From: Candidatus Nomurabacteria bacterium GW2011_GWE2_34_25
Lineage (GTDB): Bacteria; Patescibacteriota; Minisyncoccia; Phycocordibacterales; UBA9973
Length of the DNA: 54,608 nt
Assembly (NCBI GenBank): GCA_000990325.1
Contig: LBPS01000009.1
Coordinates: forward strand, 1-54,608
Reading direction: 5' to 3'
This document shows positions 16,996 to 54,441 of this stretch, piece after piece. A model generated the notes under the pieces. It was not told the DNA's origin. It saw nothing but the letters and a program-made list of their open reading frames with translations, and made no database searches. Position numbers and translations under genes: made by a program. Position 1 is the stretch's first letter, and each line of letters starts with the position of its first letter.

Positions 16996-17098
16996 GTTGA
17001 ATAATCTTTGAGAAGGGGCCGGCGGAGGTCGACGGACCGAGCAATGAGCAAATTTTCAGCAGAAAATTATGCGGACCCTTCGAGAAGAGTTATTCAAC
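16996..17098. repeat. GC-rich structured element with inner TTTTC-AGCA-GAAAA hairpin
   Basis: Terminal GTTGAATAA/TTATTCAAC, GAAGGG/CCCTTC; 14-mer TTTTCAGCAGAAAA shared with 53798-53811. Confidence 0.6.
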
Positions 17099-41949: not shown

Positions 41950-41969
41950 TTTTTGTTTCAAAAACCCTA

Positions 41970-42140
41970 GCTGGGAGATATGGACCGGCAGTAGCCTTAT
42001 CGAACCTTACAGGTTCAGTACACCTTTTCCGTTCGTAAACTCACACGGAAAAGGTTTTCGATTCCCTAACGCGAGTAAAGAAGTTTACTCGCTTCTCCCA
42101 GCAAAAGAAAACCATACTTTAAAAGTGGGTTTTCTAATTT
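41970..42140. repeat. tRNA-Gln 3'-associated element with direct and inverted interrupted copies of the tRNA 3' end
   Basis: GCTGGGAGATA..ATCGAACC (41970-42006); TTCGATTCCCTA..TCTCCCAGCAAA (42057-42105). Confidence 0.8.
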
Positions 42141-42141
42141 G

Positions 42142-42212
42142 CTGGGAGATAGGGAATCGAACCCCAATTAAAGGCTTCAAAGGCCTCTGTCCTACCGTTA
42201 GACGATCTCCCA
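42142..42212 (-). tRNA. tRNA-Gln (TTG), CCA not encoded
   Basis: Reverse complement TGGGAGA..GAGGC-CTTTGAA-GCCTT..GTTCGAT..TCTCCCA-G. Confidence 0.95.
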
Positions 42213-52519: not shown

Positions 52520-52596
52520 GCACAAAATAATTTAATTTTCTTGCGCTTTACCCCAAAGGGGCCCTACGCGACAGCGAAAATCAATTTATTTTATGC
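52520..52596. repeat. Imperfect inverted-repeat element upstream of obgE
   Basis: GCACAAAATAATTTAATTTTC...GAAAATCAATTTATTTTATGC enclosing CCCCAAAGGGGCCCTACG. Confidence 0.55.
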
Positions 52597-52610
52597 TCGC
52601 TAGAATACAT

Positions 52611-53579
52611 ATGTTCATAGACGAAATAAAATTTTTTGGAAAAGCTGGAACCGGTGGAGACGGGGTTGTTCGTTGGCGTCGGGAGAAATTCATAGATAAA
52701 GGTGGGCCCAATGGCGGAGACGGAGGTAGAGGTGGCAGTGTATTTGCTGTCGCTGTACAAGACGTTCATATCCTTTCTCGTTACAAACATAAAAAAGAAT
52801 GGAGGGGTAACGATGGAGAGCCTGGAGCAGGCGGAAGTCGTCACGGTAAAGATGGAGCTGATATAACTATAGAGCTTCCCGTAGGTTCTATTATTACAAA
52901 CGTTGAAAGTGGCGCATCTGTATCACTAGAAGAAGTAGGACAAAAGGAACTCTTACTCAAGGGTGGTCTTGGTGGTTTTGGCAATGAACAGTTCAAGACT
53001 TCTACAAATACCGCTCCGACGACTGCCACAAAAGGCAAGATAGGAGAAGAAGGTAACTTCAAGATCGAGCTTGAACTTTTCGCTGAAGTAGGACTTATAG
53101 GTCTACCCAATGCAGGGAAGTCCTCACTCTTAAATGATATAACCAACGCCGATGCGAAGATAGGTAGCTATCAGTTCACCACCCTTGATCCAAACTTAGG
53201 AGACTTTTATGGGCATATCATTGCCGACATTCCTGGACTTATAGAAGGAGCATCGACTGGGAAGGGTCTTGGTATTAAATTCTTAAAACACATAAAGAGA
53301 ACTCGCATGCTTGCACACTTAGTATCTTTAGAAAACGAGAATCCAATGAAAGTTTATAAGCAGATAAGAAAAGAATTAGGAGCTTATGACAAATCTTTAC
53401 TTCTAAAGAAAGAAATAATAATCTTGACTAAGACAGACGTAATGACTGATACAAAGAAGCTAGATAAAATAAAAGCTGAGTTTGAGAAACTCGGTAATCC
53501 AGTCATGACCTTGTCTTTATATGAAGACCAATCTCTAAAGAAACTAATAGACGGACTTGTAAAATTGTTGAGAAAATAA
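52611..53579 (+). CDS. obgE: GTPase ObgE/CgtA
   Basis: MFIDE, GGPNGGDGGRGG, GLPNAGKS, YQFTTL, DIPGLIEGA. Confidence 0.96.
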   Translation: MFIDEIKFFGKAGTGGDGVVRWRREKFIDKGGPNGGDGGRGGSVFAVAVQDVHILSRYKHKKEWRGNDGEPGAGGSRHGKDGADITIELPVGSIITNVESGASVSLEEVGQKELLLKGGLGGFGNEQFKTSTNTAPTTATKGKIGEEGNFKIELELFAEVGLIGLPNAGKSSLLNDITNADAKIGSYQFTTLDPNLGDFYGHIIADIPGLIEGASTGKGLGIKFLKHIKRTRMLAHLVSLENENPMKVYKQIRKELGAYDKSLLLKKEIIILTKTDVMTDTKKLDKIKAEFEKLGNPVMTLSLYEDQSLKKLIDGLVKLLRK

Positions 53580-53619
53580 TATAGTATAAGAGTTTTTGAT
53601 TACATAAAAAGTCTAACAT

Positions 53620-53692
53620 GCCCTGTTAGCTCAGCTGGTAGAGCAGCTCCCTCTTAAGGAGATGGTCGGGGGTTCGATTCCCTCACGGGGCA
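53620..53692 (+). tRNA. tRNA-Lys (CTT), CCA not encoded
   Basis: GCCCTGT/ACGGGGC acceptor, CTCC-CTCTTAA-GGAG, GTTCGAT. Confidence 0.93.
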
Positions 53693-53858
53693 CAAATTTT
53701 TGCGAAGCACAAAATTTGTGATTTTTAAACATATCCAAATATATGTTTAAAAAAATCGAAAGACGGAGGCTGGCGAGCCGAGTCGGGGTCGCGAGCTTTT
53801 TCAGCAGAAAAAGACTTGTGACCGAACATGTACTCACGATTCCCTCACGGGGCACAAA
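53675..53858 (+). repeat. tRNA-Lys 3'-end 22-bp direct repeat flanking a structured ~140-bp element
   Basis: CGATTCCCTCACGGGGCACAAA at 53675-53696 and 53837-53858. Confidence 0.9.
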
Positions 53859-53874
53859 GTAGTATAATATAAAT

Positions 53875-54441
53875 ATGGAGAGACTTGGAAAAGATAAAAA
53901 TCTAAACACTAAAGAGGTCCAGTTGGACTTGCCTTTTGAAGATGTTTCTAAAAATGAAAACACTCAACATGTTGAAGGAGAATTTCAGCGGGAATATTTA
54001 GATGATCATAATAAAGAAAACGACGAAGAAGAAATTACCTATCTTTCACCCGATGAATTAATTGAATTAGAAACTTCTGATCCGGTTGCTTTTAAAGCTT
54101 TAATGGAAAAAATTAAAGAAAGAGAAGAACAAGAAAAAATAGATGAAATAGAAAGAGCTGTTTATGCAGAAGAAGCTGAAAAAGATAAACAAGAAAAAAT
54201 GAAAGAACTTCAAGAATCAATAAATAGAATAATTAAGGAAAATGAAGTAACTGACGTTATTGATGAAAGAGATGATAAAACTGGAGGATATAGACATACC
54301 ACAGAAATTGCACTACATAAAAAAGAAGAAGAAATAAAAAAGAAAAAAGAGCTGAAAATAAATAAAAACAAAACAAAACCCAAGAGTAAAAAGAGATGGT
54401 GGAATAGGGGGAGGAGATTCATTAAGGGATATTTTTGGTAG
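53875..54441 (+). CDS. Hypothetical highly charged protein (acidic body, basic tail)
   Basis: 188-aa ORF with TATAAT shortly before the ATG. Confidence 0.65.
   Translation: MERLGKDKNLNTKEVQLDLPFEDVSKNENTQHVEGEFQREYLDDHNKENDEEEITYLSPDELIELETSDPVAFKALMEKIKEREEQEKIDEIERAVYAEEAEKDKQEKMKELQESINRIIKENEVTDVIDERDDKTGGYRHTTEIALHKKEEEIKKKKELKINKNKTKPKSKKRWWNRGRRFIKGYFW

What the first reader, a model, noticed from the sequence alone, without database searches (positions are those of the whole stretch)
53675..53858. tRNA-Lys followed by a hairpin-rich mini-element closed by an exact copy of the tRNA 3' end
Seen: a 22-bp exact direct repeat of the T-arm/acceptor end, 162 bp apart. The enclosed segment is almost entirely hairpins: CACAAATTT..GCGAAGC..AAATTTGTG; TTTTTAAACATAT..ATATGTTTAAAAA; GGTCGCGAG-CTTTTTC-AGCA-GAAAAAG-A-CTTGTGACC. 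Known: tRNA 3'-end duplication is the attL/attR signature of integrase-driven islands, which are normally kb-sized and carry an integrase. Inference: this is a tiny non-autonomous tRNA-targeting element or a co-transcribed structured ncRNA. Together with the Gln and Cys loci it is my best candidate for an undescribed system here.
Basis: partly seen in the sequence, partly recalled or inferred. Interest (0 to 1): 0.75.

Follow-up and report, generated by a model that had tools for sequence, protein, structure and literature searches.

The report
Structured cassette copying tRNA 3' end
Just behind the lysine tRNA gene lies a 140-base, tightly folded, non-coding insertion that ends with a copy of the tRNA's own tail; it is one member of a large family of such cassettes, which I could not find described, that come and go behind tRNA genes of ultra-small (CPR) bacteria.

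Summary
The 22-nt exact repeat is real (53675-53696 and 53837-53858). It is not chance and not a misassembly.

It is not the scar of an integrase island. It is the target-derived right end of a roughly 140-nt non-coding cassette behind tRNA-Lys(CTT).

In this 767-kb genome, 13 of 40 tRNA/tmRNA genes carry an exact copy or antisense copy of their own 3' end within 250 nt downstream. The upstream control gives 0 of 40.

The Lys cassette carries a conserved three-way-junction "cap". A covariance model finds it in 60 of 61 genomes of the genus, and 33 of 36 inspected copies lie just after 14 kinds of tRNA or tmRNA. 18 of 28 base pairs covary. G-U outnumbers A-C 91 to 13, so the fold is on the tRNA-sense strand.

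The flanks are always local: antisense of the T-loop before the cap, sense copy of the tRNA tail after it. Near-identical cassettes (86-92%) sit behind different tRNAs in species whose obg genes are only 64-69% identical, and orthologous sites are empty or hold another type.

The layout matches E. coli RtT repeats, but there is no Rfam match. How it moves and what it does are unknown.

This scan noted the family before on other genomes (e1-881019, e1-4490828).

The parts
52593..53579 (+). obg GTPase gene, left neighbour used as synteny anchor
   Evidence: Pfam GTP1_OBG 1e-43 and MMR_HSR1 6.8e-22
53557..53585 (+). promoter-like site before the tRNA; none is found between the tRNA and the cap
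   Evidence: 9 of 12 consensus match; a consensus match only
53620..53693 (+). tRNA-Lys(CTT), intact
   Evidence: ARAGORN; Rfam tRNA 65.2 bits
53675..53696 (+). left copy of the 22-nt repeat: T-loop to discriminator plus 4 nt of the functional tRNA
53691..53720 (+). leader hairpin 1: its left arm includes the last bases of the tRNA; the tip is a GCGAAGC mini-hairpin (53702-53708)
   Evidence: inverted repeat I16; conserved at 86-92% behind Lys, Arg-TCT, Arg-CCT, Glu-CTC and Leu-TAA tRNAs in other genomes
53722..53753 (+). leader hairpin 2 (A+T-rich, 13-bp perfect stem)
   Evidence: inverted repeat I4
53754..53843 (+). type-A cap, a three-way junction. P1 53754-53758 with 53837-53841; P2 53762-53784 with a GA-rich internal loop; P3 53787-53823; joining strand 53824-53836
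   Evidence: model R1 111.6 bits; covariation; G-U/A-C asymmetry
53837..53858 (+). right copy of the 22-nt repeat (X). Its first 5-7 nt also form the 3' arm of P1 and may belong to the cassette; the rest copies the local tRNA tail
53863..54441 (+). -10-like TATAAT (53863-53868) and downstream ORF (53875-54441, 188 aa, no Pfam match). The duplicated tRNA tail keeps the sequence in front of this gene as it is at an unoccupied site
41966..42212 (-). sibling locus: tRNA-Gln(TTG) 42141-42212, terminator hairpin, antisense of the tRNA tail split by a 25-nt hairpin (HP1), two further hairpins, then an 11-nt sense copy
   Evidence: (z = -6.42)
   Evidence: R1 29.4 bits; sequence

Best explanation
The repeat marks one copy of a family of small, gene-less insertion cassettes of Patescibacteria. 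They lodge immediately past the 3' end of tRNA and tmRNA genes, in the tRNA's orientation. A cassette consists of one or two leader hairpins that fold back onto the last bases of the tRNA, and a conserved single-strand fold (here a 65-90-nt three-way-junction 'cap'). It is bracketed by sequence taken from the local tRNA: before the cap the antisense of the tRNA from T54 of the T-loop outward, from 7 nt (as here) up to about 21 nt; after the cap a sense copy of the tRNA from the T-loop (C56 in the simplest junctions) to its end. The cap therefore sits on the tip of a hairpin whose stem mimics the acceptor/T-arm helix of the neighbouring tRNA.

Shown: the family exists, it is confined to tRNA 3' flanks, its flanks are locally derived, its fold is conserved on the tRNA-sense strand, it is present or absent at orthologous sites, and it occurs behind different tRNAs and as tandem arrays.

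Inferred: (a) the sense copy arises at insertion as a 13-21-bp target duplication or a template switch anchored in the T-loop, not by integrase crossover; (b) the cassette is non-autonomous and spreads between genomes; (c) it is transcribed as the tRNA's trailer, as E. coli RtT is, and its tRNA-like closing helix lets RNase P and RNase Z cut it out. The enzyme or process that moves it is unknown.
For: Family and site: 13 of 40 tRNA/tmRNA genes of the genome have an exact antisense (9 nt or more) or sense (10 nt or more) copy of their own 3' end within 250 nt downstream; 0 of 40 in the 250 nt upstream. Model R1 hits 60 of 61 genomes of the genus, up to 19 hits per genome. 33 of 36 strong hits inspected lie 16-63 nt after, or second in line after, a same-strand tRNA or tmRNA of 15 kinds.

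Local flanks: the 18 nt at the tRNA's end recur after the cap at 15 of 18 or better in 28 of 52 cognate pairs against 12 of 2538 non-cognate pairs. The 7 nt before the cap equal the reverse complement of the own T-loop in 37 of 51. Among the 30 with a T-loop other than the commonest, 19 match their own and 0 match the commonest; non-cognate pairs match in 24 of 1990. In 14 of 53 the copy starts exactly at C56.

Fold: 95.8% of cells paired against 81.5% in shuffles and 33-45% when slid; 18 of 28 pairs have compensatory changes. G-U/U-G 91 against A-C/C-A 13.

Mobility: with the same left synteny (obg then tRNA-Lys), G000 has this cassette, G021 a different type, G008 another variant, G012 a plain hairpin and G004 nothing. 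The cassette including its leader is 86-92% identical behind Arg-TCT, Glu-CTC and Lys tRNAs in genomes whose obg is 64-69% identical. It also sits behind Leu-TAA and Arg-CCT. A copy has inserted after the tail copy of an older cassette (L042). There is a 5.3-unit tandem array at 97% identity in G001.

No gene: the only ORF of 40 aa or more across the insert is a 110-aa antisense frame that also runs through the tRNA gene itself.

The E. coli tyrV-rttR units show the same sense-antisense-sense layout.
Against: No mobilising enzyme was identified. The three Y1 transposase genes have their own, unlike hairpins. The one reverse transcriptase is a DRT2 defence enzyme. No TnpB or IS110 was found.

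Transcription is not shown. Contigs of an RNA library cover relatives' caps, but DNA carry-over cannot be excluded.

The length of the duplication is ambiguous. In this variant the first 5-7 nt of the right copy may belong to the cassette (L042 and L061).

A simple target duplication does not explain the antisense copy. Nor does it explain why a 25-nt hairpin splits that copy exactly at the acceptor/T-stem boundary in other cassette types.

The right flank of the 'empty' G004 site is only weakly similar, and the downstream proteins are not detectably related (E = 1.6).

All covariation counts come from related copies aligned to the model's own structure.
Confidence: 0.8

Rival explanations
1. 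It is mainly a host-useful RNA, not a selfish element: an RtT-like trailer RNA co-transcribed with the tRNA. Its closing helix mimics the acceptor/T-arm minihelix, so RNase P and RNase Z release it, and CCA may be added. The released RNA would act on tRNA metabolism, for instance as a decoy or sponge for enzymes or toxins that read tRNA ends, or as an antisense to the tRNA's 3' strand. Spread between loci would be by recombination among tRNA genes. This can be true together with the best explanation.
For: The fold is conserved by compensatory changes and is strand-specific. Two G-U pairs are kept in 34 of 35 and 24 of 36 distinct copies. There is no promoter-like site between the tRNA and the cap, and no G+C-rich terminator after the tRNA. 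In HP1-type cassettes the 25-nt hairpin sits exactly where the D and anticodon arms leave a real tRNA, between the complements of nt 66 and 65; read by eye in 12 of 12 such cassettes. The antisense copy is often intact where the sense copy has decayed: 9 loci with antisense of 9 nt or more, only 2 of them with sense of 10 nt or more. Relatives' caps lie in contigs of an RNA library, one of them between two tRNA genes. E. coli RtT is annotated as an RNA (rttR) at the same place.
Against: Occupancy at one orthologous tRNA differs between close relatives, and 27 of 40 genes in this genome lack exact copies, so no single locus is needed. The Lys copy has no antisense of the acceptor or T-stem, so it cannot form the tRNA-like helix. 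Related caps sit on non-tRNA hairpin repeats. No function could be tested.
Confidence: 0.35
2. The structure works in single-stranded DNA: the cassettes are hairpin elements moved by a trans-acting HUH/Y1-type or other strand-specific enzyme on the lagging-strand template, as REPINs and IS200/IS605 derivatives are.
For: The fold is strand-specific. A GCGAAGC motif lies at hairpin tips in 10 of 78 distinct caps on the sense strand and 0 on the antisense strand, and in the leader; its exceptional stability as a DNA mini-hairpin is recalled, not tested. Three Y1_Tnp genes are present in the genome. The sense strand of a gene co-oriented with replication is the lagging-strand template (general knowledge).
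Against: The hairpins flanking the Y1 genes do not resemble the cap or leader. Peel-and-paste transposition makes no long target duplication (recalled). Two conserved G-T mismatches in a 9-bp DNA stem would be costly. Expansions of the cap carry an RNA-type UUCG loop (L128).
Confidence: 0.12
3. No dedicated machinery: the sense-antisense-sense arrangement is a by-product of replication template switching or fold-back priming at the palindromic terminator and at the stable cap hairpin. It uses the near-universal T-loop box and the common trailer as microhomologies, and tandem arrays arise by unequal recombination.
For: The antisense copy is contiguous with the descending arm of the terminator hairpin, giving palindromes with arms of 25 nt or more that run into the tRNA. 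The junctions fall in the conserved T-loop. Tandem arrays exist. Inverted triplications and quasi-palindrome correction are known products of template switching (recalled).
Against: Hundreds of copies per genus, with a fold kept by compensatory change, point to selection rather than accident. The internal hairpin at a fixed tRNA-like position is hard to obtain by switching alone.
Confidence: 0.2
4. A decayed tRNA-integrated genomic island: attL and attR left after internal deletion of an integrase-bearing element.
For: Direct repeats of a tRNA 3' end are the classic att signature. A real 4.5-kb island with a large serine recombinase lies at tRNA-Phe in the same genome, with a 22-nt repeat.
Against: There is no integrase remnant in the 140 nt. 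The same 140 nt recur behind five other tRNA kinds with locally matching copies. At least 13 sites are occupied, against one tyrosine and one serine recombinase gene. At tRNA-Phe a small cassette lies at the far end of the island and supplies the repeat.
Confidence: 0.03
5. Chance repeat or assembly artefact.
For: Contigs of run X3 break inside the tRNA gene.
Against: 0 of 100 shuffles hold the 22-mer. One contig from another sample holds both copies with 0 differences. The family recurs in 60 of 61 genomes of the genus.
Confidence: 0.01

Closest known systems
E. coli RtT repeats / rttR (tyrT-tyrV operon; Rfam RF00391)
   Same: The repeats lie directly behind a tRNA gene on the same strand. 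Each unit ends with a copy of the tRNA's tail from the T-loop to the 3' end (19 nt, starting at A58, in E. coli). Each unit also holds a short antisense of that tail (10 nt). The units are repeated in tandem. All of this was read on NC_000913. The CPR arrays look alike: G001 has 5.3 units of 149 nt.
   Different: No match to RF00391 or any Rfam family, even at E up to 10. The fold is a different three-way-junction cap. The family is found behind at least 14 tRNA kinds plus tmRNA and is polymorphic between species, whereas RtT is known at one operon. RtT overlaps a small ORF (tpr); this cassette has none. [quoted passage not shown]
tRNA-targeting integrative elements and genomic islands (tyrosine or serine integrases, attL/attR)
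   Same: A direct repeat of the tRNA's 3' part flanks the insert, and the tRNA stays intact.
   Different: No integrase, 140 nt instead of kilobases. The copy matches whichever tRNA is adjacent. An antisense copy is present in most members.
Bacterial MITEs and hairpin repeats (REP/REPIN with RAYT, Correia, ERIC, Rickettsia RPE)
   Same: Short, gene-less, multicopy and hairpin-forming, with presence/absence polymorphism. The two-hairpin cap core is shared with two other hairpin-repeat families of this genome.
   Different: The hairpin arms are not constant terminal inverted repeats but are taken from the target tRNA. The site is strictly a tRNA 3' end. The core is a covarying three-way junction with strand-specific G-U pairs.
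Primer-binding site of retroviruses and LTR retrotransposons (recalled)
   Same: An antisense copy of roughly the last 18 nt of a tRNA, whose inner limit lies in the T-loop.
   Different: The antisense here runs on into the genomic trailer and terminator rather than ending at CCA. No reverse transcriptase is linked: the only one in the genome is a DRT2 defence enzyme.
tRNA-like processing signals on non-coding RNAs (e.g. mascRNA at the MALAT1 3' end; recalled)
   Same: An acceptor/T-arm look-alike could recruit RNase P and RNase Z to define RNA ends.
   Different: Only a 15-bit sub-threshold hit to that Rfam model, and it lies on the real tRNA, not on the cassette. Processing is untested here.

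Membership tests
RtT RNA (RF00391) | Lies directly 3' of a tRNA gene, same strand | tested here: met
   E. coli layout
RtT RNA (RF00391) | Unit ends with a copy of the tRNA's 3' end starting in the T-loop | tested here: met
   E. coli
RtT RNA (RF00391) | Tandem repetition of the unit | tested here: inconclusive
   Single copy in the window; 5.3 tandem units in G001 and stacks in L012-L014
RtT RNA (RF00391) | Match to the family's covariance model | tested here: not met
   No RtT hit at gathering score or at E up to 10
RtT RNA (RF00391) | Released as a discrete RNA from the tRNA transcript | not testable with these tools
   Only contigs of RNA libraries could be laid
Integrase-driven tRNA island | Integrase gene between the repeats | tested here: not met
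   No such ORF in 53694-53836; one Phage_integrase gene in the genome, on another contig
Integrase-driven tRNA island | Element-borne att core identical at all insertion sites of one element | tested here: not met
   The same cassette carries Lys, Arg, Glu or Leu tails according to its neighbour
MITE | Constant terminal inverted repeats and a short target duplication of fixed length | tested here: not met
   Arms track the local tRNA; duplication of 13-22 nt
MITE | Multicopy, gene-less, polymorphic between relatives | tested here: met
REP/REPIN with RAYT | Repeat hairpins resemble those flanking the Y1 (RAYT) gene | tested here: not met
   Hairpins at the three Y1 genes are unlike the cap or leader
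TIGR-Tas / box C/D-like guide arrays | A Nop-domain (Tas) or L7Ae-type K-turn protein in the genome | tested here: not met
   PF01798 and PF01248: no match in G000, controls rang
IS200/IS605 omega-RNA (TnpB guide) | TnpB gene present | tested here: not met
   PF07282: no match, controls rang in 8
IS91-type rolling-circle element | Y2 transposase present | tested here: inconclusive
   PF04986: no match, but the control rang nowhere

The most novel reading that the evidence does not exclude
The cassettes are RNA-level replicators or hitch-hikers of the tRNA pathway. A terminated pre-tRNA folds back on its terminator and is copied from its own 3' end up to the T-loop, which makes the antisense arm. 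The cap then folds back and the arm is copied again, which makes the sense arm. The resulting tRNA-minihelix-ended RNA is cut out by RNase P and RNase Z, may receive CCA, and returns to DNA at tRNA genes. This would be a bacterial counterpart of tRNA-primed retroelements and of the 'genomic tag' idea, and it would also explain E. coli RtT. The limits of both arms (T54/C56 and the tRNA's end), the continuity of the antisense arm with the terminator, and the tRNA-like position of the internal hairpin all fit this reading. No polymerase for it is known.
Probability: 0.1. Interest if true: 0.9.

Novelty: new variant of a known kind. Interest (0 to 1): 0.7.

Why it matters
tRNA genes are the classic landing sites of mobile DNA. 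Here the lodger is a 140-nt folded cassette without any gene, and it rebuilds the tail of whichever tRNA it lands behind.

If the family is mobile, it needs a targeting mechanism that reads the T-loop and 3' end of any tRNA or tmRNA gene, and none is known. If it is an RNA, one third of the tRNA genes of a 767-kb genome feed a structured trailer RNA of unknown role.

It also gives the long-puzzling E. coli RtT repeats a large set of analogues with hundreds of natural variants. That makes their origin and function testable by comparison.

In practice these cassettes break assemblies at tRNA genes, mimic att sites in island finders, and can be mistaken for riboswitch-like leaders of the next gene.

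Tried and rejected
1. Known RNA families. Rfam at gathering score over the whole window, and at E up to 10 over the Lys and Gln loci, gave only tRNA and noise. A hammerhead reading of the CUGACGA-like string was checked by eye and fails: that string is simply the tip of hairpin P2.

2. Phage origin. A 16-nt core pattern found 3 viral contigs. None passes model R1 at E up to 1e-6.

3. The same pattern in genome contigs. It also hit high-G+C phyla; none of those passes R1, so they are chance matches.

4. Enzyme leads in G000.
- The Y1 transposases have unlike hairpins.
- The reverse transcriptase is DRT2 (PADLOC 2e-126).
- No match for Nop, L7Ae, TnpB or IS110.
- IS91 Y2 is inconclusive because its control was silent.

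5. RNA evidence. RNA runs X15 and X17 held only about 0.10 of the sampled words. When laid, X15 contigs cover 53760-53855 at word depth 1.7-76 with 8 differences, so they come from relatives' copies. X17 covers the tRNA only. This is no proof of transcription, and the organism itself is not in those runs.

6. A 'third copy' next to the cap at 17013-17082 was an over-reading. The stems of that family are largely constant across loci.

7. Right-flank orthology of the unoccupied G004 site. Only the -10 and start-codon region look alike; the downstream proteins give E = 1.6.

8. Technical misses.
- Alignment A2 misplaced the tmRNA-linked copy, so it was left out of the seed (6 of the 8 sequences kept).
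- A too-strict regular expression found 1 copy only and was replaced.
- In one search one element was skipped, and a few low scores (L071, L135, L148) come from a wrong anchor, so the cognate count is a lower bound.
- In one search, 16 of 53 junctions stayed unclassified.

9. Literature. Five full-text searches found no description of such cassettes in Patescibacteria. I saw search listings and abstract starts only, apart from passages of one preprint. Subscription journals are not covered.
Full report
**1. The observation**

tRNA-Lys(CTT) lies at 53620-53693 on the + strand (ARAGORN; Rfam tRNA 65.2 bits). It follows obg, which matches Pfam GTP1_OBG at 1e-43.

A 22-nt stretch recurs exactly at 53837-53858, 162 nt further on. 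It runs from the T-loop through the T-stem 3' strand, acceptor 3' strand and discriminator, plus four more bases (53675-53696).

With two mismatches allowed the 22-mer occurs only at these two places, and none of 100 shuffles holds it.

There are two perfect stems of 10 and 13 bp and a long bulged hairpin. The 167 nt fold at -52.6 kcal/mol, z = -4.57.

A contig assembled from another sample (run X3) spans 53666-54100 without a difference, so both copies and the insert are contiguous there too.

**2. It is not unique**

The window is contig C9 of a 767,161-base genome with 39 tRNA genes and one tmRNA gene.

- Exact sense copies of the gene's own 3' end lie 126-166 nt downstream of six tRNA genes: Gln-CTG, Ile-GAT, Trp, Gln-TTG, Lys-CTT and Gly-TCC. 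One more lies 4.5 kb behind tRNA-Phe.
- Counting antisense copies as well, 13 of 40 genes carry an exact antisense copy (9 nt or more) or sense copy (10 nt or more) within 250 nt downstream. In the 250 nt upstream the count is 0 of 40.
- Two further genes, Arg-TCG and Glu-CTC, have a cap without such exact copies.

Reading all 40 downstream regions gives a common plan:
- the tRNA;
- a terminator-like hairpin whose stem runs back into the last bases of the tRNA;
- in most copies, the exact antisense of the tRNA's tail, from beyond the discriminator back through the acceptor 3' strand, T-stem 3' strand and T-loop;
- a conserved folded core;
- a sense copy of the tail.

In ten cassettes of this genome, in the G021 Lys cassette and in the one at the far end of the tRNA-Phe island, the antisense arm is split by a 25-nt hairpin with loop ACUGCU or a near variant. 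The split falls exactly between the complements of nt 66 and 65, the acceptor/T-stem boundary. I read this by eye in 12 of 12.

Paired with the sense copy, this gives a tRNA-like helix. The extra hairpin stands where the D and anticodon arms would be, and the core replaces the T-loop.

The Lys cassette of the finding is a leaner form. Of the antisense arm it keeps only the 7-nt T-loop complement and a short fold-back onto the tRNA's last bases.

**3. The cap and its fold**

The Lys, Trp and Thr cassettes, and copies from relatives, share a core that I modelled from 6 sequences with a hand-drawn structure of 28 pairs (model R1).

R1 finds the core as follows:
- in 60 of 61 genomes of the genus, with up to 19 hits per genome, 150 listed and 333 more unlisted;
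- in 5 of 150 other genomes sampled across the phylum;
- in genome records named Paceibacterota, Nomura-, Yonath-, Taylor- and Kaiserbacteria, Parcubacteria, Patescibacteria group, and in TPA assemblies labelled Saccharibacteria.

On 37 aligned hits (36 distinct):
- 95.8% of cells pair, against 81.5% in column shuffles and 33-45% when partners are slid;
- 18 of 28 pairs show changes on both sides;
- G-U/U-G cells number 91 and A-C/C-A cells 13;
- two G-U pairs are kept in 34 of 35 and 24 of 36 copies.

So the fold is selected on one strand, the tRNA's sense strand. That means RNA, or single-stranded DNA of that strand.

Caveats: the copies are kin, and the alignment was fitted to the model.

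In more distant lineages the two hairpin tips carry inserts of 20-60 nt while the junction is kept. That is typical of a structured RNA.

No Rfam family matches.

**4. The flanks are taken from the neighbour**

Of 36 strong hits inspected, 33 lie 16-63 nt behind a same-strand tRNA or tmRNA, or second in line behind one. The neighbours are of 15 kinds: Arg-TCT, Arg-CCT, Arg-TCG, Lys-CTT, Glu-CTC, Trp, Leu-TAA/TAG/GAG/CAA, Thr-TGT, Val-GAC, Tyr, Asp and tmRNA. The other three follow a tRNA-tail fragment.

- The last 18 nt of the neighbouring tRNA recur after the cap at 15 of 18 or better in 28 of 52 distinct cassettes. Non-cognate pairings reach this in 12 of 2538.
- The seven bases in front of the cap look constant in this genome but are not. 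They are the reverse complement of the local T-loop in 37 of 51.
- Among the 30 neighbours with a T-loop other than the commonest, 19 match their own T-loop and none matches the commonest. Non-cognate pairs match in 24 of 1990.
- In the simplest junctions (14 of 53) the sense copy starts exactly at C56, straight after the cap's last helix.
- 23 of 53, including the finding, have an extra 14-nt segment before the copy. 16 stayed unclassified.
- Where tRNA genes encode CCA, the copy includes it.

For the extra-segment variant, two cases (L042 and L061) show that the T-loop-like bases at the start of the right copy can belong to the cassette. The part of the 22-mer that is truly target-derived may therefore be about 15 nt.

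**5. Coming and going**

Five genomes keep the left synteny obg then tRNA-Lys(CTT). They show five states:
- this cassette (G000);
- a cassette of another type, with the split antisense arm (G021, the closest relative, obg 81% identical);
- another cap variant (G008);
- a plain hairpin (G012);
- nothing at all, with the next gene's start 22 nt after the tRNA (G004).

The G004 right flank resembles the sequence after the window's right copy only over the -10 and start region. The downstream proteins are not detectably related, so I call that site unoccupied rather than a proven empty allele.

The whole 140-nt unit, leader included, recurs at 91-92% identity behind tRNA-Arg(TCT) in G002, G009 and G006. 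It recurs at 86% behind tRNA-Glu(CTC) in G010, and at 88% behind tRNA-Lys in G017. The obg genes of G002, G009, G010 and G017 are 64-69% identical to the window's. It also lies behind Leu-TAA and Arg-CCT. Each time the copy after the cap is that of the local tRNA.

In G017 the copy keeps CCCTC where the resident tRNA now has CCTCC.

New units land behind the tail copy of older ones (L042, L012-L014). In G001 a 149-nt unit is repeated 5.3 times at 97% identity behind tRNA-Leu(CAA).

These facts fit a mobile, horizontally spreading cassette. They do not fit integrase crossover with an element-borne att site, which would graft a foreign tail onto the recipient tRNA.

**6. What could move it**

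The cassette encodes nothing: the only long frame across it is an antisense ORF that also runs through the tRNA.

The genome holds:
- one tyrosine recombinase;
- one large serine recombinase, inside the tRNA-Phe island;
- three Y1 transposase genes, each with its own flanking hairpins that do not resemble the cassette;
- one reverse transcriptase, a DRT2 defence enzyme.

There is no TnpB, IS110, Nop or L7Ae match. The IS91 test was uninformative.

The two-hairpin heart of the cap also tops two other hairpin-repeat families of the genome that are not at tRNAs, among them the one at 17013-17082 beside tRNA-Cys. That points to a shared but unknown recognition.

**7. How it most likely works**

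Shown: the site, the local origin of the flanks, the fold and its strand, the polymorphism and the arrays.

Inferred:
- The sense copy is made at insertion, by a staggered break or a template switch with one anchor in the T-loop and the other at the tRNA's end.
- The antisense arm is either made by a fold-back copy continuous with the terminator palindrome, or adjusted afterwards to the sense copy.
- Because no promoter-like site separates the tRNA and the cap, and the leader hairpin is G+C-poor, the cassette is probably transcribed as the tRNA's trailer.
- Complete cassettes then offer RNase P and RNase Z a minihelix.

Contigs of one metatranscriptome cover relatives' caps, one of them between two tRNA genes. 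This is a hint only.

Whether the fold serves mobility, the host, or both is open.

**8. Comparison with what is known**

The nearest described thing is the E. coli RtT repeat. Behind tyrV, 178-nt units each end with the last 19 nt of tRNA-Tyr, starting in the T-loop, and each holds a 10-nt antisense of that tail.

The layout is the same. The fold, the breadth (15 kinds of host gene, hundreds of copies in a genus) and the turnover are different, and the Rfam model does not match.

Five full-text searches found no description of such cassettes in CPR bacteria.

Earlier notes of this scan described the same family in other genomes (e1-881019, e1-4490828) and the related hairpin-tip repeats in this genome (e1-1274371, e1-1274372). 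My tests agree with them. They add:
- the junction rules (T54 and C56);
- the strand asymmetry;
- the tRNA-like position of the internal hairpin;
- the identity contrast with obg.

**9. Verdict**

This is a real and non-trivial feature. It is one member of a large family of tRNA-tail-copying structured cassettes, RtT-like in layout, probably mobile and probably transcribed. Its mechanism and role are unknown.

Noticed in passing
window 41966-42212 (-): tRNA-Gln(TTG) carries a sibling cassette of another type. It has a terminator hairpin, a perfect 9+12-nt antisense of the tRNA tail split by a 25-nt hairpin, two more hairpins, a GUGUACU motif and an 11-nt sense copy. Fold z = -6.42.
   Followed up: partly
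window 17013-17082 (+): A related two-hairpin cap sits on the tip of a hairpin with a stem of about 22 bp, beside tRNA-Cys. Its family has largely constant stems and at least six further copies on other contigs. A third family with a different stem has about five copies.
   Followed up: partly
G000 C10:33900-38540 (locus L021): A 4.5-kb island sits behind tRNA-Phe. It holds a 531-aa large serine recombinase whose reading frame ends inside the antisense of the tRNA gene, and three further ORFs. A small cassette at its far end supplies the 22-nt tRNA-Phe repeat. Parts of the locus read N (withheld).
   Followed up: partly
G000 C1:26140-27495 (-) (locus L205 1213-2568): A DRT2-type defence reverse transcriptase (PADLOC Drt2, 2e-126) in a 767-kb CPR genome, next to a 376-aa protein without any family match.
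   Followed up: no
G000 C1:18049-18228, C2:12711-12847, C2:35835-35936; loci L123 and L089: Mirror-image cases on the 5' side of tRNA genes. An 11-16-nt copy of the tRNA's 5' end lies 99-177 nt upstream (Asn, Ser-ACT, Met). In L123 and L089 the order is sense copy of the 5' end, hairpin, cap, antisense of the D-arm, then the tRNA itself.
   Followed up: partly
locus L207 (G001 C1:43250-44450), 216-1001: 5.3 tandem units of 149 nt (97% matches) behind tRNA-Leu(CAA). Each unit has a tail copy, a GCGAAGC-tipped leader, a 17-nt antisense arm and a cap. This is the closest look-alike of the E. coli RtT array.
   Followed up: yes
window 53702-53708 and cap tips in other loci: The heptamer GCGAAGC lies at hairpin tips on the sense strand only (10 of 78 distinct caps, 0 antisense). 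It is recalled as an unusually stable DNA mini-hairpin, which keeps a single-stranded-DNA reading alive.
   Followed up: partly
G000, all contigs: Most tRNA genes lack an encoded CCA and are followed by C and then A-rich sequence. ARAGORN also calls a tRNA-Ser with anticodon ACT (C2:12623-12710), divergent from a tRNA-Ser(GCT) 225 nt away. This is unusual and was not examined.
   Followed up: no
locus L068 (G020) against L064 (G067): Behind an aberrant tRNA-Asp (odd T-arm) the cassette's antisense arm matches the usual tRNA-Asp of the genus, not its neighbour. Either the tRNA gene was replaced after the insertion or the cassette was imported with its flanks.
   Followed up: no
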